64,000 bases of DNA from Naegleria gruberi (lineage: Eukaryota), in assembly GCA_000004985.1 (NCBI GenBank), contig GG738876.1, one strand, 5' to 3'. Every line of letters starts with the position of its first letter. Position 1 is the first letter of the stretch. Positions 14,520-64,000 of this stretch are shown one piece after another. The notes beneath the pieces are model-generated. The model searched no databases. It was not told where the DNA came from and was given only the letters and a program-made list of their open reading frames with translations. The position numbers and the translations under genes are program-made.

Positions 14520-14590
14520 TCGGGTGTGGTATAGTGGTAGCATTCCAGACTGTCACTCTGGCGACCCGGGTTCAATTCCCGGCACTCGAG
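14520..14590 (+). tRNA. tRNA-Asp (anticodon GUC), intron-less
   Basis: Cloverleaf drawn by hand: acceptor TCGGGTG/CACTCGA, anticodon stem CCAGA/TCTGG with loop CTGTCAC, T-arm CCGGG-TTCAATT-CCCGG. Closely resembles eukaryotic tRNA-Asp-GTC. Confidence 0.85.
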
Positions 14591-14787: not shown

Positions 14788-15744
14788 ATGATTAAACCCA
14801 ATACCACATCGTCCCTCGATCATGAAAATAATCACAACTCCACTAGAAGTGTCATACAACAAGATGATTCGGAATCTAAACCAATCCAACTCTCAGAAAA
14901 TCTGCATTTCAATTATTTGTACCTATCGGACGATGTAATTGGTGAAATTCTATCTTTTCATGATGATTTTCAATTTGTAGTAATGAATTGTGCATTGGTT
15001 TCAAAACAGTGGTTGAAAGTCATTTCGGAACGATCAAAACTTTCATTGGAATGGAATAACTTGAAGAAATTGAAGGGAAGATTTTTACAGAATATCACAA
15101 CTTTCACAGTGAGGGCTATTGAAGGAATTGGATTGATTAGTGACATACTGAAACAATTGAAATTTCTGGATATTTCTACTAATGCTATTGGATATAAAGG
15201 AGCTAGATATATTGGCCAATTGGAACAATTAAATCATCTTGAAATTAGAAATTGTAATATTGGAGTGGAGGGAGATAAATATATTCGTCAATTGCAACAT
15301 TTGACTCATCTTGATATTGGATGCAATAACATTGGTGATGAAGGAGTCAAATATATTAGTCAATTGAAACCATTAACTAATCTAAATGTTTATTTAAATA
15401 ATATTGGTGTTGAAGGAGCGAAATATATTAGTGAGCTTAAACAATTAACTCATCTTGATATTGGGTGCAATGACATTGGTGGTGAAGGTGCCAAATATAT
15501 TGGTACACTTGAAAATGTAACTCATCTCAGTATGTCAGATAATAATATTGGTTGTGAAGGTGCAAAATATATTAGTGGAATGAAACATCTAAGTTTTCTC
15601 GATATTGCTACCAATCGTATTAGAGATGAGGGAGCGAAATATATTGGTGAAATGGAACAATTATCATTTCTGTTTATGAGATACAATATTATTAGTGATG
15701 AAGGAGCAAAATATTTAAGCGAAAGAGGATTCAATAATTGTTGA
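14788..15744 (+). CDS. Leucine-rich-repeat protein (ribonuclease-inhibitor-type LRRs), possible F-box-like N-terminus
   Basis: About 8 tandem 24-28-aa repeats of the form L(T/S)HLDIGCNNIGDEG(A/V)KYI(S/G)QL. 318 aa. Confidence 0.6.
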   Translation: MIKPNTTSSLDHENNHNSTRSVIQQDDSESKPIQLSENLHFNYLYLSDDVIGEILSFHDDFQFVVMNCALVSKQWLKVISERSKLSLEWNNLKKLKGRFLQNITTFTVRAIEGIGLISDILKQLKFLDISTNAIGYKGARYIGQLEQLNHLEIRNCNIGVEGDKYIRQLQHLTHLDIGCNNIGDEGVKYISQLKPLTNLNVYLNNIGVEGAKYISELKQLTHLDIGCNDIGGEGAKYIGTLENVTHLSMSDNNIGCEGAKYISGMKHLSFLDIATNRIRDEGAKYIGEMEQLSFLFMRYNIISDEGAKYLSERGFNNC

Positions 15745-18819: not shown

Positions 18820-20439
18820 ATGTCCTCATCAATTGCCCTGAATAATTCTAATACCTCTACCACTACTACTACCAATCCTCCTTTTGATATTTCCAAGCTT
18901 GTTACTCAAGCAGTTTTGTTACCTTCCTCCTCATCGTCATCCTTCCATAACAACCTCCCTAAATCATCATCATCATCCCCCTGTGCATTGGATAATAATA
19001 CCAATGAACAACAACAACAACAACCATTGAGTGATGATTCGATCATTCTCGAAGAAACAACCACCACCGACGTTGATAATACAGTAATTGCCACCATAAC
19101 GACAAAAGCTGCTCTAGGCAGTGGTGCTTTGATGGTTGAAGGAGTTGCCCTTGTCGACGATGAAGATGACGAAGAATCAACACCTGCCACACCAGAAGCT
19201 AATGGAGAATCCCAGCAAGAATCTTCTCAACAAGAACACCAAGAATCTGGCCTTTTAAAAGCCAAGAAGAAGAAGAATTCATTGACTAATAGTGCAGCAG
19301 CTCTTGAAGATTTGGAAACTATTTCAACCATGACAACTGTCAAGACTACAAGTACAACAAAGAAGGTTGTCAAGAGACATTCATCGCTCTCTGCTCAAAC
19401 TATGAACCAAGCAATGGATCAATCAATGAATCAATCAGCTCAACAAGAAGAACAATACACCACTCTTAAATCATCCACTCCAACAAAGAAGCAGAACAAG
19501 GAAAAGAAAGCAAGTCCTATCAATAATCTCTTCAAATCCATCAAGGGTGTCATTAAATCTTTAAAGAAGAATAAGAATAACAAGAGCACTTCTAGCTCAA
19601 CGACTTCACATAATAATAGCAAGCAAGATGGTGATTTAATCCATCAATTCTGTANNNNNNNNNNNNNNNNNNNNNNNNNNNNNNNNNNNNNNNNNNNNNN
19701 NNNNAACAAGGTGAAGCACTCACTGGTTTCTCAACAAGACGAAGAAGTCAAGACAAATAAGAAGAGAGCTCACAAGCAAGCTCCACAAACTGCTCTTCTC
19801 CCACCTCAACGACCACACGTTCAAGGCAAGAAGACTCTTGTACTTGACCTTGATGAAACATTGGTTCACTCTGTCTTTGTACATACTGACCAAGCTGACT
19901 TTGTGATTCCAATTGAAATGGATGGTAGAACATACTCTTGTTATGTTCTCAAGAGACCTGGAGTTGACGAATACTTGAGAGAACTCGGTCAATACTATGA
20001 AATTATCATCTTTACTGCTTCTCTCTCCCTGTATGCCAACCCACTTCTTGACATTCTTGATAAGCATGGTGTCATTGAAGGTAGATTATTCCGTGAACAT
20101 TGTACAAAGGTTGGTGATACTTACATTAAGGATCTCTCAAGATTGGGTCGTGATTTAGATCAAACCATTATTGTAGATAATTCTCCAAGTTGCTATGCAA
20201 TGCAACCACAAAATGCTTTGGCTTGTACCACATGGTACGATGATCCAAACGATAGAGAGCTGGGTCTTCTTGCTGATTGTCTCAAACGACTTGAAAGAGA
20301 AAAGGCTGTCTATGATGGTCTCAAGTCATGGAAGGAATTAATTTCATCAGGTGTTAATGTTACCTCATGGAATGGCGGATCAGCAATGACAGTATCCTCG
20401 ACGTCTCACCATCATCAAGTAATAAAGAAAAGAATGTAA
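18820..20439 (+). CDS. CTD small phosphatase-like protein (FCP1-homology/NIF domain), interrupted by N-gap 19656-19704
   Basis: C-terminal catalytic domain KKTLVLDLDETLVHS (DxDxT motif) ... IIIFTASLSLYANPLLDILD ... IIVDNSP. Long Ser/Thr/Gln-rich N-terminal region. The gap sits in the low-complexity linker. Confidence 0.8.
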   Translation: MSSSIALNNSNTSTTTTTNPPFDISKLVTQAVLLPSSSSSSFHNNLPKSSSSSPCALDNNTNEQQQQQPLSDDSIILEETTTTDVDNTVIATITTKAALGSGALMVEGVALVDDEDDEESTPATPEANGESQQESSQQEHQESGLLKAKKKKNSLTNSAAALEDLETISTMTTVKTTSTTKKVVKRHSSLSAQTMNQAMDQSMNQSAQQEEQYTTLKSSTPTKKQNKEKKASPINNLFKSIKGVIKSLKKNKNNKSTSSSTTSHNNSKQDGDLIHQFCXXXXXXXXXXXXXXXXXNKVKHSLVSQQDEEVKTNKKRAHKQAPQTALLPPQRPHVQGKKTLVLDLDETLVHSVFVHTDQADFVIPIEMDGRTYSCYVLKRPGVDEYLRELGQYYEIIIFTASLSLYANPLLDILDKHGVIEGRLFREHCTKVGDTYIKDLSRLGRDLDQTIIVDNSPSCYAMQPQNALACTTWYDDPNDRELGLLADCLKRLEREKAVYDGLKSWKELISSGVNVTSWNGGSAMTVSSTSHHHQVIKKRM

Positions 20440-20991: not shown

Positions 20992-21072
20992 TGCAGAAGG
21001 TGGGATTTGAACCCACGAAGCTTGCGCAGTAGAACTTGAGTCTACCCCCTTTGACCACTCGGGAACCCCTGC
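20992..21072 (-). tRNA. tRNA-Leu (anticodon CAA), intron-less, long variable arm
   Basis: Minus-strand GCAGGGGTTCCCGAGTGGTCAAAGGGGGTAGACTCAAGTTCTACTGCGCAAGCTTCGTGGGTTCAAATCCCACCTTCTGCA. 3-bp D stem, anticodon loop CT-CAA-GT, 12-nt variable arm, T-arm GTGGG-TTCAAAT-CCCAC. Confidence 0.8.
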
Positions 21073-23902: not shown

Positions 23903-24024
23903 NNNNNNNNNNNNNNNNNNNNNNNNNNNNNNNNNNNNNNNNNNNNNNNNNNCTGAAATTTTATTAATTTTATCTTTTTTTGCTTAATCATCATCATCCT
24001 AGGATGAAAATGCATAATTTATTA

Positions 24025-50752: not shown

Positions 50753-53422
50753 TCAATCATTAATTTTGGAACATTTGTGCATTAGTAATTCAGCTGCCAC
50801 ATCATTGTTGAGTTCATGATATTCTTTGAAGAGTTCTTTTGCTTCGTCGAATTGATTTGAGAAGAAGAGTATGCAAGCTTGATTGTATTTGGTCCATTTG
50901 GCTTTCTTTTCCTTTTCTTTTAACTCATACATCCATTCTGTTAAAAAAGAATAGTTAAATATTTTAAATATTTTCAAAATTATTACTTACCATCCATGCC
51001 AACATGTAAACTTTCACCCAATTCATAAATGTGTGTTGGTTCTATTGGTGCTTTTTCATTATCTTTGTGTTGAATAAATGGTGATGAAAAGTATGTATCT
51101 AGGATCAATTCTGTCGTATAAACATATCTCATTTGATAATGTTTCTCTAAACTTGAAAATACTCTATCAGATAAAACAATATTCAAATTCATTTTTGATG
51201 CAATATTCAACATGGACTCCAAATTGAATCTAGCACTTGAAATAACTGTGAAGTTCTTAAAATCATTCGATCCTAAATTTCCACATAATGATTCTTGAAC
51301 ACAAATTGCAAATCTAAATTTTACAATTTCAATCAAATGAGGTTTCTTTTTCAAAATTTGATTTGGCCATTTCTTTGATTTGGTTGTATTTAGTTTTTCC
51401 ATTAATTGAACACATGTTGCAGCTGCTTTTTCTGAATGTTTTGACTGGTTTGAACTTGCATTGAATGAAATTGAAATTAAATCATTTTCAAAATTTCCCA
51501 AATATCCATTACTTGTTCGACAAACTAATCCCACATGATCAAAGAAATCTTTCAACAGGTCAACACAATCACCTGCTGATATTTCAGAGAATAATCTATT
51601 CAATCCTTCAATATGAATTGCAACAATGGATAATTTCTTTCTATCCAAGTGAAGTGAGAAAATGTCCAAATCATTCGAATATCTTCGATGTGAACTAGAG
51701 GTATGACTTCTACTCCAAGCGGATGCTTTTGAGGATTTATGATAGGAATCCATTGAAGCACCCTTCTTCTTTGAATCTTGGCCTCCATTGTTTTCATTGT
51801 TAGATCCTCCTTGATCTAATTGAGAAAGTAAATGTGATGGAATGAAAGCTCTGTAAAGTTTGATTCTGTCTGTCATGGTTTTGAAATGATTTTGTAACTG
51901 TTTCACTTCTGTAAACTTGGAATCATGAATTTCTAAATTATCCAAATCCATGTGAGAAACACTTTCGAATAAATCAATCAAATTGTAAAATGGTTTCACT
52001 AATCTGACTGAAATGAAGATGGAAATGGCTACACCTGTTGTGACAATGAATGTGGCACCAACAATAGCACAAATTACAGCAATAACAATTGACCTAATGT
52101 AATTCCATTGAGGAACTGCTAACACAAACAACCTATTTTGAACAATTATTATATCTAACTCGTTTAGGTTACTTACCAATCAACATCAGTATCTGTACAT
52201 AATCTGTAAATTGAAATGTAATCAGTTTCTGATGTAATTAAATACTTGGTATTGCATTTAATATTCAAACTAGTTCCATAGTGTTCTTCTAATAGGCGAG
52301 CAATAGCAGAAACTCTTTCATCATTATCAATCTTGAGAAAGGTCTGTCTTGTGACAGATCCATCTGAATTAACAACTGCAACTCTTGCATTAGAATTGTC
52401 ATCTTCAATATTGTAAACTATTTACCTTAATCATTGTACAACTTACTTGCAATCATATATTGAGTTGCCATTTCAATAATAAAACTTTTAGAACCAGTTA
52501 TTTTAGAAGTTGCATTCGCCAAATATTGAGAAATAGTTTCAGCAGACATGTCAATTGCCAGATAATACTTAAATTTGTTTCCTTTTGCATCTGGTTGAGT
52601 TAATGGCATTGAATTATACATGGTAATGAAAGTATACTGTGGTTGTGATGCATCTATGAAACTTAGAGACATGGTTGCTTTGTTGGGATGAGTATTTCCT
52701 GTAGTAATCATAACTGTCAAGTCAAAAAATCCTAATTGAATGTCAGGAATAGAACTTCTATTGCAATAGTCAAGTTCATCAAAGTTATTACAATAATAAA
52801 GTTGTTGATCCTTTGTGGTGATGTTGAATAAGGCTTGCTTGCCTCCCCAGTCCATAACTCCATATTGTCTTTAAGAAATTAAAGAAATATTGTAAAGCTT
52901 AAAACTTTTGTAAAGTATTTACCTTCCTTCATTGTCACCAATATTGCAAGTGACAACAACTCCTTTCATGTAACTCTTTTGTTGCTTATAAAACTGATAA
53001 ATCATCACTTCTATCTGATCTCTATCCGAAAAATCAAGTGATTTCAGCATTAAATGTTTGGCATTGTCGCTTGACATTGACACTTCTCTAATCAACTGTG
53101 CTACAAATGAAATAATATTATTAAACTCATAATCTCTCAATTCTGAACTATAAGAAACCACTGATGGCATAAAACTGCTCAACCATATTGCTGAAAGCAT
53201 TAAAACAGTCAACAATACAATTATTGAAATTATTAAAATTAGCCACATTTTAATCGAACCAAAGAATGCAATCTTTCTCTTGTCTTCGTTACTAAAAAGG
53301 CCATGTTCTTCCTTGGTGATCCACATTTGTAGAGTGGACAAGGAACTACCATTCTTTGGGTTTTCCTCAATCTCTCGCTCAATTTTTGTTTGAACGGGTG
53401 TGACTTGTTTCTTTTCTTTCAT
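50753..53422 (-). CDS. Sensor adenylate/guanylate cyclase, ACG-like: TM, extracellular sensor domain, TM, HAMP-like, class III cyclase domain, TPR-like tail; complement(join(50753..50937,50991..52132,52177..52417,52447..52868,52923..53422)), about 829 aa
   Basis: Five exons link track ORFs 52919-53422, 52427-52855, 50983-52179 and 50753-50977 plus an unlisted exon 52177-52417. Introns of 54, 29, 44 and 53 nt all start GTAAGT/GTAAAT and end AG with consistent phases. TM1 WLILIISIIVLLTVLMLSAIWL, TM2 IVIAVICAIVGATFIVTTGVAISIFISV. The cyclase-like block is LSIVAIHIEGLNRLFSEISAGDCVDLL...FAICVQESLCGNLGS. Confidence 0.6.
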
Positions 53423-53799: not shown

Positions 53800-54010
53800 A
53801 AGCTGAAGTAAAGGCCACTGTATTTGATTTGTCAAGTTGGGGCGCACAATCAGGATCATCTGCAAGTATTCCTCTTCTTCTCTTCTTGTTGATGAAACAC
53901 CTCTCTTCATTGGAGGAGGCTGCTTTGTTATTAAGCACTGGTGAGTAGCCCTAAATACGCAAAACATCAAGAACAACAACATGTATAATTTTTTGGAATT
54001 TGGAGTAGAA
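53800..54010. repeat. Subtelomeric dispersed repeat copy A (partner copy at 58290-58580)
   Basis: Shared blocks by eye: TGTATTTG(ATTT)GTCAAGTTGG; CAGGATCATC; TCCTCTTC.TCTCTTCTTGTT; TGCTTT.TTATTAAGCACTG; CGCA.AACATCAAGAACAACAAC; TATAATTT.TTGGAATTT. Confidence 0.55.
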
Positions 54011-54415: not shown

Positions 54416-56329
54416 ATGAAAACACTTGCTAACAAGGTTATTTCATCATCAATTATTACCGCTTCTCGAGGATCCTCTCTCAAGAATGGTTCTATTCTTG
54501 TTGGTGGTACTTTTAATACATTACCATTGATCAATATTGGAAAACATCATCCATCATTTTCAATAATTGAAATTGCTAGAAGAAATTATCATGCAACAAG
54601 TAGTAAAATGTTCTTTGATTTGAAAAAGGCCAAACAAGAAGCAGAGACTGTAGTTTATTCCGAACAAGAACAGAATGAATTGATCAAAAATTATCAACTA
54701 CTTGAGGACAAATTTCAGAGATTAACTGAGAATATTATTGAATATCGTAGAAATCATCCTACTCCTGTTCAATTAGAAACGAACCACTTATTTGTTCAAG
54801 TTTGTGATATTGTAAATTTTTGTTACAAAACCTTTCCGACAGGTAGTGCTCCAGTTAACATGCAAGTTAGATTCTTCAAATCAAATGTTGGAATGAAGTC
54901 ATATGTCTTGATGAAGAAGGTTGAGTTGTTAATGTTAAAGATTGTAAATCAAGAATGGTTCCCAGTTGAAACAATCAGAACTCAATTCCATGAGGAAAAT
55001 ATCATGGAATCCATTTCTGATGTTGTTCATCCTCCTGATACACCTATTGACGATACACTCTTCTTGTATGCTTCTTATAATACAGCCCTTTCTTATGCAG
55101 CTTTCATTCCAAAACTAAACATTAGAGATATGGTGAGACCAATCACAAAGGAAAATCTAATTGCTGCAACATTATTCTTGTTTAATCGATTGAAGGATTT
55201 TCCAGATTGGACCGATGAGTTTAGAGCTTATGTCGAGTGTGTCTTTTCAGATTATGAATCAGCCAAATTGGCTTATACTACTGCAAATCCAATTGAAAAT
55301 GAACCAGCTTTCCATTATAATGCTGATGATAATGCTTATTCTTACTTGGGAAAGACATTCACAGAGCACGAGTTTGATTGGTTCGAAGATATTGAAACAA
55401 ATATTCCAATTCATCTTGGAAATTTTATCAAAGCTGTGTCGGCTGCTGCTTATTTTGATGGAGATAGAAAGCAAAGTATTGATATTTTGGATGAATGTAT
55501 CAAAACTGATCCAAAGAATATTTATATTCACTATTTGAAGGCATCTTGTTTAAACAATCTCACTAGTTCAGAGTCAGACCTTAATATTGTTCGCAATAAT
55601 TACTCAGATGCTATTCATCATTTGGAGAAGGCATTGGCCTATCTTGAAAATATTCCAAAGTTGCCACTTCCTACTCTTGCAAAGACTAATTTTTCACACG
55701 AAATTGAAGAACCAGAAAAACAGGTTGAAAGAATTAACGATCTCAAATTCACACCAATTTGTTTATTATTGGCCAACGTGTATGCAAGAGCTGCTGAATC
55801 TGGAGTTTCAATAGATTTGCGACACATTTACGGTGCAAAGGGGGTCGATTATGTCAGACAAGTTGAATTATATTCAAGATCACCTAATGAGCCTTATTTG
55901 TATATGAGTAAGGGAGGTTGCTATTATGCTTGTGGTATGTATGAATTGGCAGTCAATGCCTATTCTTCTGTTGAAAGATTTGAAGCAGTTTTGGATCCAA
56001 ACGCCATCATTGACTCTCTTTGTTATGCTTCGAATGGAATGGTTGCTCTTGGGTATTCTGATAAGTGTTTGGAAGCAATGGAATTTTATATTGAAAAATA
56101 TAATAATGATGCGAGATTAGTTTTTCAAAAGATTCTCTGTAAAGAGTACATGTGTAGATCAAAGGATGAATTGAGACAGGTTTTGAAAGAATTCGAACAA
56201 TTAAAGGAGAGCATTCAAGATTTGAAACTCACTCCATGGATTTATTCAAGGGTTAACGAGCAAACCGATGCAAGAATTAACGATATTTTTGCAGCTATCA
56301 ACAATCCACAAATTGCTGAACGTTGGTAA
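54416..56329 (+). CDS. Hypothetical protein with TPR-like helical repeats; N-terminus resembles an organellar presequence
   Basis: 637-aa ORF. N-terminus MKTLANKVISSSIITASRGSSLKNGS is basic/hydroxylated and free of acidic residues. C-terminal helical-repeat-like segments (GGCYYACGMYELAVNAYSSVERFEAVLDPN). Last gene before the subtelomeric non-coding zone. Confidence 0.45.
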   Translation: MKTLANKVISSSIITASRGSSLKNGSILVGGTFNTLPLINIGKHHPSFSIIEIARRNYHATSSKMFFDLKKAKQEAETVVYSEQEQNELIKNYQLLEDKFQRLTENIIEYRRNHPTPVQLETNHLFVQVCDIVNFCYKTFPTGSAPVNMQVRFFKSNVGMKSYVLMKKVELLMLKIVNQEWFPVETIRTQFHEENIMESISDVVHPPDTPIDDTLFLYASYNTALSYAAFIPKLNIRDMVRPITKENLIAATLFLFNRLKDFPDWTDEFRAYVECVFSDYESAKLAYTTANPIENEPAFHYNADDNAYSYLGKTFTEHEFDWFEDIETNIPIHLGNFIKAVSAAAYFDGDRKQSIDILDECIKTDPKNIYIHYLKASCLNNLTSSESDLNIVRNNYSDAIHHLEKALAYLENIPKLPLPTLAKTNFSHEIEEPEKQVERINDLKFTPICLLLANVYARAAESGVSIDLRHIYGAKGVDYVRQVELYSRSPNEPYLYMSKGGCYYACGMYELAVNAYSSVERFEAVLDPNAIIDSLCYASNGMVALGYSDKCLEAMEFYIEKYNNDARLVFQKILCKEYMCRSKDELRQVLKEFEQLKESIQDLKLTPWIYSRVNEQTDARINDIFAAINNPQIAERW

Positions 56330-56640
56330 TAACTAAGCACATGGTCTAAGTTTGAAAAGGTGTTAAATAAACATCTTTTAACTTACCATTGTGATATATA
56401 ATAGTCTGATCTACATGTGTTGCAAACAGGAAGGTGTACCTTCCTATATTTATTGAGATAATCAATAAAGTTTGGAATGTGTCAGAAAAACTTGCCCTCT
56501 CGCCATTTTGCCATATTTGAGATCTGGACTTTTATAGTCTGGAAATAGGGTAGACGTGTTCCATATTCAATAATCTATATGAAAAAAAGAAGAAATAAAA
56601 TTAACTCTTGAATTGAGTATATAACGACTATTGATATTAC

Positions 56641-56658
56641 TATATATATATATATGGT
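56641..56658. repeat. (TA)n microsatellite
   Basis: CTATATATATATATATGG, direct reading. Confidence 0.8.
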
Positions 56659-58289
56659 ATTTGGATAATAAATTCCACAGAAATCACTCTTGAAATATAA
56701 AATGCACTAGAGTATGTGAGAAACATAATGGTGGTGAAACTGACCAATAACTCGCTGAAATGACTGATATGGAATGTAAACTATGGTCTATTATTCATGT
56801 AAGTGTGACTAGACAGTGTCAATTCCACTATAGTATTTCATACTGGATTGAAATCATCAAATATACTTCTATACATCACATATATCATGTAGAACTAGTT
56901 TCAATATTTAATATTGTGAGATGACTCTGTTGGATACCATCTCTATAAATATAACAAGATGAAAAGTGTCAATATATGTTTTCACATACATGTTACTATG
57001 AAGAGTCATCATTATATCATCTAAATAGGTAGTATTTATATATAACAATTGAACATATGATTCCTGTATCAATAATTCATTATTCAATGATTTAGATATG
57101 ATGGTAAAATTTAATTTTGGAATTAAGATTCTTCCCTATTGATTACCTTAGATGTTTCCTTAGTTGACTTGAAGTTTTTGAGCCATCAATATGAAACTTT
57201 CACAGATTGTTCTCCTCACCAAGAGGAGTGTATTCATATTGATACTTGTATGATATTTTGTAAAATGAATGAGATGGAGTATATTTTATATGTTGAAATG
57301 TGACAATTTGACAGATTGTTATTATTATCATACTGAATTCAACTCTAATAGACTTAAATTGATACCATATGTAGGTTGGGTTTGGTTAACCTGGCGCCGG
57401 ACGATTTTGTCCAAAAATCCTGCCTTTCGACCTAAAATTTTTTAGCTATGCCTTCTACACATCTATTTCTATCTACCATATTAATATCTAGTCTTGTCTT
57501 TAAGTAGTTTTCGAGAAAATAGCCTCTGATTAGAGGTCATTTTTCAATAAAATTTTCCCGCGGAAATTTCCCCGCTTTTAGTATTGGGTTTGGTTATCGT
57601 TTCGTACTATTGGATCTTCATTATTACTGAAATACATAATCAATGATATACATCATTAAATAGGTTACAATCTCAGCTATCCAGTGGGCTATAGATTGTG
57701 TATAGTTTCTTATATAATTATTGAGATAATCAGCAATTCCTCACTCAATATATTGCGATTTTACTATTCCTAGGGAAAGGTAAAAGAATGATCAGAAATT
57801 GATCAATAAAAAATATATGTCATACTAGAGATGATTTGCTATCGATTGGTGTTTCAACTTTTGGATTTCACTAAGTAATTATTGAATTATCACCGAGGGT
57901 TTGGGTTGGTGGGGTTTGGGTGAGTTTTATACACTTTCATACAATAGAGTGATATTGAAATGTACCCTTTGATATTTCTGGATGGGTAGCATGATTTAGT
58001 GATGATTCCGACAATAAAAATCATATATTGTTCATATAATTATCAAGATATTGTATAATTTATTAAATATAAAGTGGGTAATATTGAATATTCTTTGTAG
58101 GAGCGGAAGCACTTATTCTTGTCAGTTGGAGTCAGTATTGTATTAAGGTTCATTTAAGGAATCTTAAAAAAATACAATAACAACTCACCTGCATCAACAT
58201 CATCAAGTATATCATCTATATTGAATATAAAGCAACAGCAAGAATGTATGGAGTTGATTCAACATGATTATTGGATTGGAGAGATGGCA

Positions 58290-58580
58290 AAAATATTACT
58301 ATTATTGTATTTGTCAAGTTGGAAGTACCCTCAGGATCATCAGCGAGGTTTCCTCTTCATCTCTTCTTGTTAGAGAGGTTTTTCATCCACAAGATGGTCA
58401 TCTTCTTCAATTGAAGAGGTTGCTTTATTATTAAGCACTGAGAGAAGCGTTTTTAAATTTTATTTTGATGAAATAAATCAAAATTTATTACGCACAACAC
58501 ATCAAGAACAACAACAGCAACATGCTGATACACCATCATCATCACTGGGTGAATTGGCCATCATTGTTGTATAATTTCTT
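58290..58580. repeat. Subtelomeric dispersed repeat copy B (partner of 53800-54010), followed by His-rich partial ORF running into scaffold gap
   Basis: See copy A. The downstream ORF 58522-58753 (MLIHHHHHWVNWPSLLYNF...) is truncated by the N-run. Confidence 0.5.
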
Positions 58581-58753
58581 GGAATTTATTGGATTAACAG
58601 TAAATTTTGGAATTACTCTCCTATTGAAGATGGAACATCAGCAACATCACCAAGATGATCTTCAATTGGATAGTATTGTTTTCAGGAGTGGTTTCACGCT
58701 TTTTGTGGGCTCTTTCAACATACCATCATCAGAATGGTCATCATCTTGTTGAG

Positions 58754-61700
58754 NNNNNNNNNNNNNNNNNNNNNNNNNNNNNNNNNNNNNNNNNNNNNNN
58801 NNNNNNNNNNNNNNNNNNNNNNNNNNNNNNNNNNNNNNNNNNNNNNNNNNNNNNNNNNNNNNNNNNNNNNNNNNNNNNNNNNNNNNNNNNNNNNNNNNNN
58901 NNNNNNNNNNNNNNNNNNNNNNNNNNNNNNNNNNNNNNNNNNNNNNNNNNNNNNNNNNNNNNNNNNNNNNNNNNNNNNNNNNNNNNNNNNNNNNNNNNNN
59001 NNNNNNNNNNNNNNNNNNNNNNNNNNNNNNNNNNNNNNNNNNNNNNNNNNNNNNNNNNNNNNNNNNNNNNNNNNNNNNNNNNNNNNNNNNNNNNNNNNNN
59101 NNNNNNNNNNNNNNNNNNNNNNNNNNNNNNNNNNNNNNNNNNNNNNNNNNNNNNNNNNNNNNNNNNNNNNNNNNNNNNNNNNNNNNNNNNNNNNNNNNNN
59201 NNNNNNNNNNNNNNNNNNNNNNNNNNNNNNNNNNNNNNNNNNNNNNNNNNNNNNNNNNNNNNNNNNNNNNNNNNNNNNNNNNNNNNNNNNNNNNNNNNNN
59301 NNNNNNNNNNNNNNNNNNNNNNNNNNNNNNNNNNNNNNNNNNNNNNNNNNNNNNNNNNNNNNNNNNNNNNNNNNNNNNNNNNNNNNNNNNNNNNNNNNNN
59401 NNNNNNNNNNNNNNNNNNNNNNNNNNNNNNNNNNNNNNNNNNNNNNNNNNNNNNNNNNNNNNNNNNNNNNNNNNNNNNNNNNNNNNNNNNNNNNNNNNNN
59501 NNNNNNNNNNNNNNNNNNNNNNNNNNNNNNNNNNNNNNNNNNNNNNNNNNNNNNNNNNNNNNNNNNNNNNNNNNNNNNNNNNNNNNNNNNNNNNNNNNNN
59601 NNNNNNNNNNNNNNNNNNNNNNNNNNNNNNNNNNNNNNNNNNNNNNNNNNNNNNNNNNNNNNNNNNNNNNNNNNNNNNNNNNNNNNNNNNNNNNNNNNNN
59701 NNNNNNNNNNNNNNNNNNNNNNNNNNNNNNNNNNNNNNNNNNNNNNNNNNNNNNNNNNNNNNNNNNNNNNNNNNNNNNNNNNNNNNNNNNNNNNNNNNNN
59801 NNNNNNNNNNNNNNNNNNNNNNNNNNNNNNNNNNNNNNNNNNNNNNNNNNNNNNNNNNNNNNNNNNNNNNNNNNNNNNNNNNNNNNNNNNNNNNNNNNNN
59901 NNNNNNNNNNNNNNNNNNNNNNNNNNNNNNNNNNNNNNNNNNNNNNNNNNNNNNNNNNNNNNNNNNNNNNNNNNNNNNNNNNNNNNNNNNNNNNNNNNNN
60001 NNNNNNNNNNNNNNNNNNNNNNNNNNNNNNNNNNNNNNNNNNNNNNNNNNNNNNNNNNNNNNNNNNNNNNNNNNNNNNNNNNNNNNNNNNNNNNNNNNNN
60101 NNNNNNNNNNNNNNNNNNNNNNNNNNNNNNNNNNNNNNNNNNNNNNNNNNNNNNNNNNNNNNNNNNNNNNNNNNNNNNNNNNNNNNNNNNNNNNNNNNNN
60201 NNNNNNNNNNNNNNNNNNNNNNNNNNNNNNNNNNNNNNNNNNNNNNNNNNNNNNNNNNNNNNNNNNNNNNNNNNNNNNNNNNNNNNNNNNNNNNNNNNNN
60301 NNNNNNNNNNNNNNNNNNNNNNNNNNNNNNNNNNNNNNNNNNNNNNNNNNNNNNNNNNNNNNNNNNNNNNNNNNNNNNNNNNNNNNNNNNNNNNNNNNNN
60401 NNNNNNNNNNNNNNNNNNNNNNNNNNNNNNNNNNNNNNNNNNNNNNNNNNNNNNNNNNNNNNNNNNNNNNNNNNNNNNNNNNNNNNNNNNNNNNNNNNNN
60501 NNNNNNNNNNNNNNNNNNNNNNNNNNNNNNNNNNNNNNNNNNNNNNNNNNNNNNNNNNNNNNNNNNNNNNNNNNNNNNNNNNNNNNNNNNNNNNNNNNNN
60601 NNNNNNNNNNNNNNNNNNNNNNNNNNNNNNNNNNNNNNNNNNNNNNNNNNNNNNNNNNNNNNNNNNNNNNNNNNNNNNNNNNNNNNNNNNNNNNNNNNNN
60701 NNNNNNNNNNNNNNNNNNNNNNNNNNNNNNNNNNNNNNNNNNNNNNNNNNNNNNNNNNNNNNNNNNNNNNNNNNNNNNNNNNNNNNNNNNNNNNNNNNNN
60801 NNNNNNNNNNNNNNNNNNNNNNNNNNNNNNNNNNNNNNNNNNNNNNNNNNNNNNNNNNNNNNNNNNNNNNNNNNNNNNNNNNNNNNNNNNNNNNNNNNNN
60901 NNNNNNNNNNNNNNNNNNNNNNNNNNNNNNNNNNNNNNNNNNNNNNNNNNNNNNNNNNNNNNNNNNNNNNNNNNNNNNNNNNNNNNNNNNNNNNNNNNNN
61001 NNNNNNNNNNNNNNNNNNNNNNNNNNNNNNNNNNNNNNNNNNNNNNNNNNNNNNNNNNNNNNNNNNNNNNNNNNNNNNNNNNNNNNNNNNNNNNNNNNNN
61101 NNNNNNNNNNNNNNNNNNNNNNNNNNNNNNNNNNNNNNNNNNNNNNNNNNNNNNNNNNNNNNNNNNNNNNNNNNNNNNNNNNNNNNNNNNNNNNNNNNNN
61201 NNNNNNNNNNNNNNNNNNNNNNNNNNNNNNNNNNNNNNNNNNNNNNNNNNNNNNNNNNNNNNNNNNNNNNNNNNNNNNNNNNNNNNNNNNNNNNNNNNNN
61301 NNNNNNNNNNNNNNNNNNNNNNNNNNNNNNNNNNNNNNNNNNNNNNNNNNNNNNNNNNNNNNNNNNNNNNNNNNNNNNNNNNNNNNNNNNNNNNNNNNNN
61401 NNNNNNNNNNNNNNNNNNNNNNNNNNNNNNNNNNNNNNNNNNNNNNNNNNNNNNNNNNNNNNNNNNNNNNNNNNNNNNNNNNNNNNNNNNNNNNNNNNNN
61501 NNNNNNNNNNNNNNNNNNNNNNNNNNNNNNNNNNNNNNNNNNNNNNNNNNNNNNNNNNNNNNNNNNNNNNNNNNNNNNNNNNNNNNNNNNNNNNNNNNNN
61601 NNNNNNNNNNNNNNNNNNNNNNNNNNNNNNNNNNNNNNNNNNNNNNNNNNNNNNNNNNNNNNNNNNNNNNNNNNNNNNNNNNNNNNNNNNNNNNNNNNNN

Positions 61701-62899
61701 NNNNNNNNNNNNNNNNNNNNNNNNNNNNNNNNNNNNNNNNNNNNNNNNNNNNNNNNNNNNNNNNNNNNNNNNNNNNNNNNNNNNNNNNNNNNNNNNNNNN
61801 NNNNNNNNNNNNNNNNNNNNNNNNNNNNNNNNNNNNNNNNNNNNNNNNNNNNNNNNNNNNNNNNNNNNNNNNNNNNNNNNNNNNNNNNNNNNNNNNNNNN
61901 NNNNNNNNNNNNNNNNNNNNNNNNNNNNNNNNNNNNNNNNNNNNNNNNNNNNNNNNNNNNNNNNNNNNNNNNNNNNNNNNNNNNNNNNNNNNNNNNNNNN
62001 NNNNNNNNNNNNNNNNNNNNNNNNNNNNNNNNNNNNNNNNNNNNNNNNNNNNNNNNNNNNNNNNNNNNNNNNNNNNNNNNNNNNNNNNNNNNNNNNNNNN
62101 NNNNNNNNNNNNNNNNNNNNNNNNNNNNNNNNNNNNNNNNNNNNNNNNNNNNNNNNNNNNNNNNNNNNNNNNNNNNNNNNNNNNNNNNNNNNNNNNNNNN
62201 NNNNNNNNNNNNNNNNNNNNNNNNNNNNNNNNNNNNNNNNNNNNNNNNNNNNNNNNNNNNNNNNNNNNNNNNNNNNNNNNNNNNNNNNNNNNNNNNNNNN
62301 NNNNNNNNNNNNNNNNNNNNNNNNNNNNNNNNNNNNNNNNNNNNNNNNNNNNNNNNNNNNNNNNNNNNNNNNNNNNNNNNNNNNNNNNNNNNNNNNNNNN
62401 NNNNNNNNNNNNNNNNNNNNNNNNNNNNNNNNNNNNNNNNNNNNNNNNNNNNNNNNNNNNNNNNNNNNNNNNNNNNNNNNNNNNNNNNNNNNNNNNNNNN
62501 NNNNNNNNNNNNNNNNNNNNNNNNNNNNNNNNNNNNNNNNNNNNNNNNNNNNNNNNNNNNNNNNNNNNNNNNNNNNNNNNNNNNNNNNNNNNNNNNNNNN
62601 NNNNNNNNNNNNNNNNNNNNNNNNNNNNNNNNNNNNNNNNNNNNNNNNNNNNNNNNNNNNNNNNNNNNNNNNNNNNNNNNNNNNNNNNNNNNNNNNNNNN
62701 NNNNNNNNNNNNNNNNNNNNNNNNNNNNNNNNNNNNNNNNNNNNNNNNNNNNNNNNNNNNNNNNNNNNNNNNNNNNNNNNNNNNNNNNNNNNNNNNNNNN
62801 NNNNNNNNNNNNNNNNNNNNNNNNNNNNNNNNNNNNNNNNNNNNNNNNNNNNNNNNNNNNNNNNNNNNNNNNNNNNNNNNNNNNNNNNNNNNNNNNNNN
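58754..62899. other. Scaffold gap (4146 N) between subtelomere and terminal telomere-associated sequence
   Basis: Uninterrupted run of N. The giant six-frame ORFs spanning it are artefacts. Confidence 0.99.
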
Positions 62900-63600
62900 G
62901 AATTGATATGAAATTCAATACCAATTATTGAAATACCATGATTAATTGATCTATATATGATGCTATAATTGAAAGATTTTAAAATTAATATCATTTCATT
63001 ATCTTGATATTCATTATTCCCATGATTACACTCCTGACATGTTGAATGATATCAAATTGTCATGAAACTGATACAGTAGTGTTTATTCACCATTAGTAAG
63101 GTACTGTATCAATTTCATAATGATCTGTATAGTAGATGTCATTGTCTCATCCCTGTAGGTATCAAGTGGATCAGCCATGTACCATGAATGATATGGATGA
63201 TCTTCAAAATCATATAGATATATTTAATTATCATGTATAGATGTATTGGAAGTGAATTGAAGTGGTATAGATTTCTATCTTCAATGTTAGTATAGGTCAG
63301 TTGACAAGTTGAATAGTTAATTTCCTTAGATGATTCCACAGTACCTGAAATTGATACATGTTGTTACCAACATGATTTATAAGGTGATATATTGATTTGA
63401 ATTGATTTTGAAATGTTTTCATTGATATTCTAATTGTCTAATCTATTATATGAAATTAACTTATATAAGTCATTATAATGATGTAATATTATGTTATAAT
63501 ATGATTATATATTCAATTTGGAGTATATTGATATATAATATATTGATTTATAATGAGTATTTATTGAGATAATCAATTAAGATGACTAAAAATCAAAATG

Positions 63601-64000
63601 TTGGGTTTGGGTTTGGGGTTGGGTTTGGGTTTGGGTTTGGGTTTGGGTTTGGGTTTGGGTTTGGGTTTGGGTTTGGGTTTGGGTTTGGGTTTGGGTTTGG
63701 GTTTGGGTTTGGGTTTGGGTTTGGGTTTGGGTTTGGGTTTGGGTTTGGGTTTGGGTTTGGGTTTGGGTTTGGGTTTGGGTTTGGGTTTGGGTTTGGGTTT
63801 GGGTTTGGGTTTGGGTTTGGGTTTGGGTTTGGGTTTGGGTTTGGGTTTGGGTTTGGGTTTGGGTTTGGGTTTGGGTTTGGGTTTGGGTTTGGGTTTGGGT
63901 TTGGGTTTGGGTTTGGGTTTGGGTTGGGTTTGGGTTTGGGTTTGGGTTTGGGTTTGGGTTTGGGTTTGGGTTTGGGTTTGGGTTTGGGTTTGGGTTTGGC
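63601..64000 (+). repeat. Telomere repeat array (TTTGGG)n with occasional TTGGG/TTTGGGG variants, about 65 units, G-rich strand 5'->3' toward the window end (right chromosome terminus)
   Basis: Direct reading. The array begins after the unique junction ...GAGATAATCAATTAAGATGACTAAAAATCAAAATG and runs to the last base of the window. Confidence 0.9.

What the first reader, a model, noticed from the sequence alone, without database searches (positions are those of the whole stretch)
63601..64000. Chromosome end with an uncommon TTTGGG telomere unit
The window ends in about 400 bp of near-perfect (TTTGGG)n with sporadic TTGGG and TTTGGGG variants, which looks like telomerase stuttering. The G-rich strand points outward, so this is a genuine right-arm terminus and not an internal satellite. 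TTTGGG is not the canonical unit of the best-known model taxa (TTAGGG, TTTAGGG, TTGGGG, TTAGG). Ciliates with mixed TTGGGG/TTTGGG were considered but are excluded by the standard stop-codon usage here. The repeat unit could therefore help place the source organism, and it marks everything from about 53.4 kb onward as subtelomeric.
Basis: seen in the sequence. Interest (0 to 1): 0.6.

Follow-up and report, generated by a model that had tools for sequence, protein, structure and literature searches.

The report
Naegleria gruberi TTTGGG telomere, already reported
The window ends in a genuine chromosome-end (telomere) repeat of the amoeboflagellate Naegleria gruberi, whose unusual TTTGGG unit was already reported from this same genome assembly in 2013, so the finding is correct but not new.

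Summary
Window 63601-63999 holds 66.7 tandem copies of TTTGGG, 62 of 66 units perfect, with the G-rich strand running 5'->3' to the end. Exact protein matches identify the source as Naegleria gruberi NEG-M, on a 396,977-bp scaffold. It is not a ciliate. Fulneckova et al. 2013 (PMC3622300) already listed TTTGGG as the candidate telomere repeat of N. gruberi, from terminal arrays in this assembly. I found no later experimental validation in the paper library.

- A 4,146-N scaffold gap lies 700 bp upstream, so the 1.1-kb telomere contig is joined to the rest by scaffolding only.
- The last base is C, not G.
- Only one of the "stuttering" variants is a real length change. The TTTGGGG+TTGGG pair is a single in-phase T->G substitution.

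The distinct subtelomeric domain starts at about 56.3 kb, not 53.4 kb. It is gene-free, its GC falls from 0.31 to 0.25, it carries three short degenerate telomere-like tracts in the same orientation, and a 24-nt motif occurs three times, once 20 bp before the array.

The most likely mechanism is telomerase synthesis on a CCCAAA-type RNA template. This is inferred, not shown. Novelty: already known. Interest: low.

The parts
63601..63999 (+). Telomere array (TTTGGG)n: 66.7 copies, G-rich strand pointing to the end. 62 units are perfect. Variants: one in-phase T->G substitution at 63618 (read as TTTGGGG+TTGGG, 63612-63623) and one 1-nt deletion (TTGGG at 63924-63928).
64000..64000 (+). Single non-repeat base C after the array. 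Most likely a low-quality read end or clone junction. It shows that the array stops exactly one base before the window end.
   Evidence: inference
62900..63600 (+). Unique, very AT-rich (GC 0.25) telomere-adjacent sequence of the terminal contig. No ORF longer than 66 aa.
63558..63581 (+). 24-nt subtelomeric motif TATTTATTGAGATAATCAATTAAG, copy 3. It ends 20 bp before the array.
   Evidence: 0 expected in 100 shuffles
58754..62899 (.). Scaffold gap of 4,146 N that separates the telomere contig from the rest of the scaffold.
56330..58753 (+). Gene-free proximal subtelomere (GC 0.31, no ORF of 60 aa or more until 58.5 kb). It is part of the longest ORF-free run in the window (56327-63572).
56447..56470 (+). 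24-nt motif, copy 1 (TATTTATTGAGATAATCAATAAAG), 118 nt after the stop codon of the last gene.
57715..57738 (+). 24-nt motif, copy 2 (15-nt core TTATTGAGATAATCA exact; 79% identical over 24 nt).
57376..57388 (+). Short telomere-like tract TTGGGTTTGGTTA. It is the left copy of a direct repeat spaced 208 bp apart.
57584..57596 (+). Short telomere-like tract TTGGGTTTGGTTA, the right copy of the 208-bp-spaced direct repeat.
57897..57925 (+). Degenerate interstitial telomere-like tract GGGTTTGGGTTGGTGGGGTTTGGGTGAGT, in the same orientation as the terminal array.
58305..58440 (+). Decayed duplicate (about 80-86% identity, in-frame stops) of 53824-53940, the sequence upstream of the last gene.
54416..56329 (+). 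Last intact gene before the end: NAEGRDRAFT_80226 (637 aa, weak TPR matches). Residues 339-637 are identical to NAEGRDRAFT_74410 on another scaffold (236,320 bp).

Best explanation
This is the telomere of one Naegleria gruberi (strain NEG-M) chromosome end, as captured in the 2010 Sanger scaffold assembly. It is at least 400 bp of (TTTGGG)n with the G-rich strand running 3'-outward. Before it lie about 0.7 kb of AT-rich unique sequence and, across a 4.1-kb sequencing gap, a gene-free subtelomere that carries relics of older telomere repeats. The most likely mechanism (inferred) is the standard one. A telomerase reverse transcriptase copies a short RNA template complementary to about 1.5 repeats (a permutation of 5'-CCCAAACCC-3') onto the 3' G-overhang. 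The C-strand is then filled in, and sequence-specific duplex and single-strand binding proteins cap the end. The near-perfect homogeneity of the array reflects faithful templated synthesis. The substitution near the proximal junction is what one expects of older repeats that are rarely resynthesised. The 399 bp is a lower bound set by read length, not the true telomere length.
For: Shown here:
- Array anatomy, purity and orientation.
- The array ends exactly one base before the window end. For an arbitrary cut that would be about a 1-in-64,000 coincidence unless the sequence itself ends there (inference).
- Seven window ORFs match N. gruberi NEG-M proteins exactly, all on one 396,977-bp scaffold.
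- Outside the array, the 8-mer GGGTTTGG occurs 4 times on the + strand and 0 times on the - strand, all within 57.37-57.93 kb. About 0.32 per strand is expected (Poisson P about 3e-4). These are same-orientation telomere relics of the kind typical of subtelomeres.
- The longest ORF-free run in the window leads to the array, and GC declines stepwise 0.34 -> 0.31 -> 0.25.
- A 24-nt motif is shared between the terminal contig (63558) and the contiguous scaffold (56447, 57715), with 0 expected by chance. This ties the small telomere contig to this region independently of mate pairs.
- Among environmental contigs carrying (TTTGGG)6 or longer at a terminus, 25 have the G-strand outward and 8 have the opposite orientation. 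Elsewhere, too, this repeat behaves mainly as a telomere.

From the literature: Fulneckova et al. 2013 (PMC3622300) searched this assembly by position and orientation and named TTTGGG as the candidate telomere repeat of N. gruberi. The genome was among those with a 'convincing pattern'.
Against: - The telomere contig (62900-64000) is linked to the rest only across a 4,146-N gap.
- The final base is C.
- I could not retrieve the scaffold coordinates or any other N. gruberi scaffold end. Terminal position in the record, and recurrence at other ends, rest on the coincidence argument and on the 2013 paper.
- No TERT gene, telomerase RNA, Bal31 or TRAP evidence was obtained. The 2013 authors themselves say experimental tests are required.
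- I found no later paper on Naegleria telomerase or telomeres in the library.
Confidence: 0.9

Rival explanations
1. The array is a real N. gruberi telomere, but it belongs to a different chromosome end. The 1.1-kb terminal contig was joined to this scaffold wrongly, through mate pairs that fall in duplicated subtelomeric sequence.
For: - The join is a 4,146-N gap.
- The region is demonstrably duplicated. The C-terminal 299 residues of the last gene are identical to a protein on another scaffold.
- 58305-58440 is a decayed copy of 53824-53940.
Against: - The 24-nt motif is shared by the terminal contig and the contiguous part at 56447 and 57715.
- Same-orientation telomere relics and a gene desert begin right after the last gene. 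This part of the scaffold therefore looks like a chromosome end in its own right.
Confidence: 0.08
2. The array is an interstitial telomere-like satellite, and the scaffold continues beyond the window.
For: - The last base, C, is non-repeat.
- The 2013 survey notes that most genomes with terminal repeats also have internal blocks.
- 93 of 126 environmental TTTGGG arrays were internal, although those were short at 29-138 bp.
Against: - An arbitrary window boundary falling exactly 1 nt after a 399-bp array is very improbable.
- The array is about 3 times longer and purer than any internal environmental array seen.
- The orientation, the gene desert and the degenerate relics all fit a true end.
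Confidence: 0.02
3. The terminal contig is contaminating ciliate (Paramecium-type) macronuclear DNA.
For: TTTGGG is one of the two Paramecium telomere hexamers.
Against: - Paramecium telomeres are a TTGGGG/TTTGGG mixture. This array has no TTGGGG unit at all.
- The flank shares a 24-nt motif with bona fide N. gruberi sequence.
- The 2013 survey reports a convincing terminal pattern of this repeat for the N. gruberi assembly.
Confidence: 0.005

Closest known systems
Candidate N. gruberi telomere repeat TTTGGG (Fulneckova et al. 2013, Genome Biol Evol 5:468, PMC3622300)
   Same: Same organism, same assembly, same repeat unit, and the same criteria of terminal position and orientation. This window is one instance of what that survey reported.
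   Different: Nothing substantive differs. This analysis adds locus-level anatomy: the gap, the variant positions, the subtelomeric relics and the 24-nt motif.
Paramecium macronuclear and micronuclear telomeres, TTGGG(G/T)
   Same: The TTTGGG hexamer occurs there. The repeat is G/T-only with no A. It is made by telomerase.
   Different: In Paramecium, TTTGGG is a by-product (misincorporation or stutter) on a Tetrahymena-like TTGGGG template, and arrays are mixed. Here the array is 62/66 pure TTTGGG with no TTGGGG unit. The organism is a heterolobosean that uses the standard genetic code.
Tetrahymena-type TTGGGG and the widespread TTAGGG (including trypanosomatids, fellow Discoba)
   Same: A six-nucleotide TxGy-class telomerase repeat with a G3-4 tract capable of forming G-quadruplexes. 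Each is one substitution away from TTTGGG.
   Different: One base in the unit is different (TTGGGG: third base G instead of T; TTAGGG: third base A instead of T). This implies a different telomerase RNA template and probably altered specificity of the telomere-binding proteins.
Interstitial telomeric sequences and subtelomeric telomere relics
   Same: The short degenerate tracts at 57376, 57584 and 57897 behave like such relics. They are short, mutated and in the same orientation as the end.
   Different: The terminal array itself is long, pure and terminal, so it is not one of these.

Membership tests
Telomerase-type eukaryotic telomere | Tandem array of a short G/T-rich unit | tested here: met
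   66.7 copies of TTTGGG, 98% match, TRF score 784
Telomerase-type eukaryotic telomere | Located at the end of the sequence with the G-rich strand running 5'->3' outward | tested here: met
   The array occupies 63601-63999 of 64000 on the + strand. That the scaffold record ends here is inferred from the 1-nt coincidence and was not read from the record (searches failed).
Telomerase-type eukaryotic telomere | Same repeat at the other chromosome ends of the organism | not testable with these tools
   The N. gruberi assembly is not retrievable here. The literature reports a 'convincing pattern' of terminal arrays in this assembly.
Telomerase-type eukaryotic telomere | Physical terminal position (Bal31 sensitivity, 3' G-overhang) and telomerase activity (TRAP) | not testable with these tools
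   This is experimental. The 2013 authors state that it is still required.
Telomerase-type eukaryotic telomere | TERT gene and telomerase RNA with a template complementary to the repeat | not tested
   There was no genome access. The window has no Rfam telomerase RNA hit. The only CCAAACCCAA strings (minus strand, 57376 and 57584) show no excess structure.
Paramecium-type mixed TTGGGG/TTTGGG telomere | Interspersed TTGGGG and TTTGGG units; ciliate host with reassigned stop codons | tested here: not met
   0 TTGGGG units among 66. The proteins are exact N. gruberi matches under the standard code.
Interstitial telomeric sequence | Flanked by non-telomeric sequence on both sides | tested here: not met
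   Only one base (C) follows the array.

The most novel reading that the evidence does not exclude
The subtelomere may hold more than decay products. A 24-nt motif (15-nt core TTATTGAGATAATCA) occurs three times, only in the last 7.6 kb, always on the + strand, and once just 20 bp before the telomere. It could be a chromosome-end-specific cis element, for example a site that directs telomere healing or addition, loosely analogous to the ciliate chromosome-breakage sequence. It could instead be a binding site for a subtelomere factor. Separately, the 208-bp unit bounded by TTGGGTTTGGTTA reads on the minus strand as CCAAACCCAA, 1.67 repeats of template-like sequence. In principle it could be a telomerase-RNA-related sequence, not a relic.
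Probability: 0.04. Interest if true: 0.6.

Novelty: already known. Interest (0 to 1): 0.15.

Why it matters
It matters little for discovery. It confirms that a tool-less reader can correctly recognise a chromosome end and an unusual telomere unit. That unit was already published for this very genome in 2013. There are two residual points of value.

First, the N. gruberi telomere is still only an in-silico candidate. I found no Bal31 or TRAP data, no TERT characterisation and no telomerase RNA for it. Heterolobosea therefore remain a gap in telomerase biology.

Second, this locus gives concrete probes and junction sequences for such experiments: the unique 62900-63600 flank, the 24-nt motif and the relic tracts.

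Tried and rejected
1. Retrieving the N. gruberi scaffold, to read the true scaffold end and other scaffold ends. Exact-protein look-ups of five window proteins and of P0003 all returned 'not on record'.
2. Using GenBank accession numbering to place the window in the scaffold. Minus-strand genes are numbered as a separate block (EFC43079-83, 43085), apart from the plus-strand EFC43007. However, the count between them is the same wherever the window lies, so it does not discriminate. I dropped it.
3. Synteny. The N. fowleri and N. lovaniensis orthologues of the last gene (35% identity) lie 137-169 kb inside their contigs. The subtelomeric position is therefore not conserved, and their contig ends could not be inspected.
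4. Metagenome scan for motif plus telomere (ATTGAGATAATCA N15-45 GGGTTTGGGTTTGGG). It gave 0 hits, which is uninformative.
5. Metagenome scan for (TTTGGG)6. It returned 120 loci, none similar to the window by blastn or tblastx and none carrying the motif.
6. Identifying the organism behind the JAESGV01 contigs that end in TTTGGG. The DYW-type PPR protein has only 22-25% identical, plant-like hits, so this is unresolved.
7. Supplementary Table S5 of the 2013 paper is not held.
8. Rfam over the whole window and over the gene-free stretch found only two tRNAs and sub-threshold noise.
9. Folding of the 208-bp unit showed no excess structure (z -0.19 and -0.75).
10. Ciliate contamination was rejected (see rival explanations).

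Full report
1. THE OBSERVATION

Tandem Repeats Finder gives a single array at 63601-63999: period 6, 66.7 copies, 98% matches, no indels at its resolution, score 784. Parsing it as T-run/G-run units gives 62 TTTGGG, 3 TTGGG, 1 TTTGGGG and a final truncated TTTGG, followed by a single C at 64000. The 11-mer GGGTTTGGGTT with up to one mismatch occurs 67 times in the window, against 0.74 expected from dinucleotide-preserving shuffles. All 67 are on the + strand and 64 lie in the array. The G-rich strand therefore reads 5'->3' towards the end, which is the geometry of a right-hand telomere.

Three details were missed or misread.
- The 'TTTGGGG' at 63612 and the 'TTGGG' at 63619 are adjacent and together span 12 nt. 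They are one T->G substitution that preserves phase, not a slippage event. The 'TTGGG' at 63601 is just the junction unit. Only the TTGGG at 63924 changes length, and it lies 75 nt from the end of what is very probably a Sanger read tail.
- The last base breaks the repeat.
- A run of 4,146 N occupies 58754-62899. The array and its 700 bp of unique flank form a 1.1-kb terminal contig that is attached to the rest of the scaffold only by scaffolding.

2. THE ORGANISM

The window is gene-dense with long ORFs under the standard code. It encodes typical eukaryotic proteins: a HECT ligase, a CLC channel, a ferric reductase/NOX-type oxidase, RNI-type LRRs and a subtilase. A homology search with the HECT protein found Naegleria lovaniensis at 57% identity. 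Exact-sequence look-ups then settled the question. Seven window ORFs are identical to N. gruberi NEG-M proteins (EFC43079-43083, EFC43085, EFC43007), all on one scaffold of 396,977 bp. The two 50-N gaps and the sized 4,146-N gap fit the published Sanger assembly ACER00000000 (784 scaffolds, 1,977 contigs, 35% GC; Table 1 of PMC6831594).

3. WHAT IS ALREADY KNOWN

Fulneckova et al. 2013 (PMC3622300) searched 143 genome assemblies for telomere-type minisatellites and judged candidates by position and orientation. [quoted passage not shown] They add that experimental tests are required to confirm terminal position. Their Table S5 is not held in the library. Full-text searches for Naegleria combined with TTTGGG, telomeric repeat, telomere plus genome assembly, telomerase, or telomerase reverse transcriptase turned up no later work on Naegleria telomeres or telomerase. 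The N. fowleri nanopore paper does not mention telomeres. The repeat is thus published but remains an in-silico candidate.

4. IS THIS THE END OF THE SEQUENCE?

I could not obtain the scaffold's own coordinates. The N. gruberi assembly is absent from the contig index. The argument is therefore indirect. The array stops exactly one base before the window end. For an arbitrarily cut 64-kb window that would be roughly a 1-in-64,000 coincidence, unless the sequence itself ends there. Had the window been cut inside a longer array, the last base would be an in-phase G. The lone C is most simply a poor-quality final base or a clone junction. The 399 bp is a lower bound on telomere length, set by read length.

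5. THE SURROUNDINGS

The last intact gene is 54416-56329 (+), NAEGRDRAFT_80226: 637 aa with weak TPR matches. Its closest paralogue in N. gruberi is 44% identical. Its N. fowleri and N. lovaniensis orthologues are 35% identical and lie 137-169 kb inside their contigs, so the subtelomeric location is not conserved in the genus. Residues 339-637 are identical to NAEGRDRAFT_74410 (304 aa) on a different scaffold of 236,320 bp. That is either a recent duplication shared with another locus or an uncollapsed haplotype. If it is a duplication, the breakpoint is near 55.43 kb.

From 56,327 to the array runs the longest stretch in the window without an ORF of 100 aa or more. GC falls from 0.34 in the body and last gene, to 0.31 at 56330-58753, to 0.25 at 62900-63600.

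Within 57.37-57.93 kb there are three short telomere-like tracts, all with the G-strand on +:
- TTGGGTTTGGTTA at 57376;
- TTGGGTTTGGTTA again at 57584, a direct repeat exactly 208 bp apart;
- GGGTTTGGGTTGGTGGGGTTTGGGTG at 57897.

Outside the array, GGGTTTGG occurs 4 times on the + strand and 0 times on the - strand, against about 0.32 expected per strand (P about 3e-4).

A 24-nt motif, TATTTATTGAGATAATCAAT(A/T)AAG, occurs at 56447 and at 63558 (1 mismatch). Its exact 15-nt core also occurs at 57715. All three are on the + strand and are found nowhere else in 64 kb, with 0 expected in shuffles. The third copy ends 20 bp before the array. Because the motif is shared by the terminal contig and the contiguous scaffold, it is modest evidence, independent of mate pairs, that the two belong together.

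Finally, 58305-58440 is a decayed copy (about 80-86% identity, with in-frame stops) of 53824-53940, the sequence upstream of the last gene.

Together these features mark a subtelomeric domain that starts at about 56.3 kb. Nothing changes at 53.4 kb. The single TTTGGGTTT at 53355 lies inside an ORF, and I judge it compatible with chance.

6. HOW IT MOST LIKELY WORKS

The mechanism is inferred from general telomere biology and not shown here. Telomerase would extend the 3' G-overhang by copying an RNA template that carries about 1.5 repeats of the complement (a permutation of CCCAAACCC). The C-strand would then be filled in and the end capped by sequence-specific proteins. Each GGG tract separated by TTT meets the simple G-quadruplex rule.

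The high purity (62/66 units) argues for faithful templated synthesis, and against the Paramecium situation. There, TTTGGG arises by misincorporation or stuttering on a TTGGGG-type template and arrays are mixed. This array contains no TTGGGG unit. The substitution sits 12-18 nt from the proximal junction, where repeats are oldest. The evidence for 'stuttering' is one 1-nt deletion that may be a sequencing error.

I could not test for TERT or a telomerase RNA. Rfam finds only two tRNAs in the window and nothing credible in the gene-free stretch. The minus strand of the two 57.4/57.6-kb tracts reads CCAAACCCAA, which is template-like. However, the 231-nt segment shows no excess folding energy (z -0.19 and -0.75) and contains several T-runs. 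Relics or a target-site duplication are the parsimonious reading.

7. IS THE UNIT TAXONOMICALLY DIAGNOSTIC?

- Of 126 arrays, 93 are internal microsatellites, 25 are terminal with the G-strand outward and 8 are terminal in the wrong orientation.
- One WGS project (JAESGV01) contributes at least a dozen contigs that end in essentially pure TTTGGG, each abutting a different unique sequence.
- Some of those contigs have much longer ORFs under the ciliate code.
- One (L085) carries a Ty3/gypsy-type element running into the telomere and a DYW-type PPR gene. That gene's nearest named relatives are only 22-25% identical plant proteins.
- None shows any similarity to the window or carries the 24-nt motif.

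Pure TTTGGG termini therefore exist outside N. gruberi, and the unit alone would not have placed the organism.

8. RIVALS

- Mis-scaffolding of a genuine telomere contig onto the wrong chromosome end is the only serious rival (about 8%). It is favoured by the gap and the local duplications. It is disfavoured by the shared motif and by the independent end-like character of 56.3-58.7 kb.
- An interstitial array (about 2%) is disfavoured by the 1-nt coincidence, the length and the purity.
- Ciliate contamination is effectively excluded.

9. VERDICT

Novelty: already known. Interest: 0.15. What remains open is experimental validation of the Naegleria telomere, identification of its telomerase RNA, and the meaning of the recurrent 24-nt subtelomeric motif.

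Noticed in passing
window 56447-56470, 57715-57738, 63558-63581: A 24-nt motif, TATTTATTGAGATAATCAAT(A/T)AAG (15-nt core exact in all three copies), occurs only in the last 7.6 kb, always on the + strand. The last copy ends 20 bp before the telomere. 0 copies are expected by chance. Its function is unknown.
   Followed up: partly
window 57376-57596: A 208-bp unit is bounded by direct repeats TTGGGTTTGGTTA and encloses unusually GC-rich hairpin-prone sequence. Its minus strand reads CCAAACCCAA, which resembles a telomerase template. It has no excess fold energy and no Rfam match. It is probably a telomere relic with a target-site-like duplication.
   Followed up: partly
window 54416-56329 (residues 339-637, from about 55.43 kb): The C-terminal 299 residues of the last gene (NAEGRDRAFT_80226) are identical to NAEGRDRAFT_74410 on a different 236,320-bp scaffold. 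This is either a recent duplication with a breakpoint inside the gene or an uncollapsed haplotype.
   Followed up: partly
window 58305-58440 vs 53824-53940: A decayed duplicate, about 80-86% identical with in-frame stops, of the region upstream of the last gene lies just before the scaffold gap. The gap may hide a second copy of that gene block.
   Followed up: partly
window 58754-62899; 19655-19704; 23903-23952: Scaffold gaps: one sized gap of 4,146 N and two 50-N gaps. The first separates the telomere contig from the rest of the scaffold.
   Followed up: yes
window 14520-14590 (+) and 20992-21072 (-): Two tRNA genes (Rfam RF00005, 57 and 49 bits).
   Followed up: no
window 15197-15714: A 72/144-bp tandem periodicity inside an RNI-type leucine-rich-repeat gene (ORF 14788-15744; LRR_6, E 3e-36). 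This is coding repeat structure, not a satellite.
   Followed up: partly
L008, L030, L032, L043, L055, L078, L079, L084, L085, L103, L116, L121 (WGS project JAESGV01): At least a dozen environmental contigs end in essentially pure (TTTGGG)n with the G-strand outward, each abutting a different unique sequence. L085 has a Ty3/gypsy element running into the telomere and a DYW-type PPR gene with only 22-25% identical, plant-like hits. The organism or organisms are unidentified. Some contigs look ciliate-coded.
   Followed up: partly
L001 (N. fowleri VFQX01000006.1, 137-159 kb) and L002 (N. lovaniensis PYSW02000006.1, 147-169 kb): The orthologues of the last N. gruberi gene lie deep inside the contigs and have different neighbours in the two species. 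There is no conserved synteny with the N. gruberi chromosome end.
   Followed up: partly
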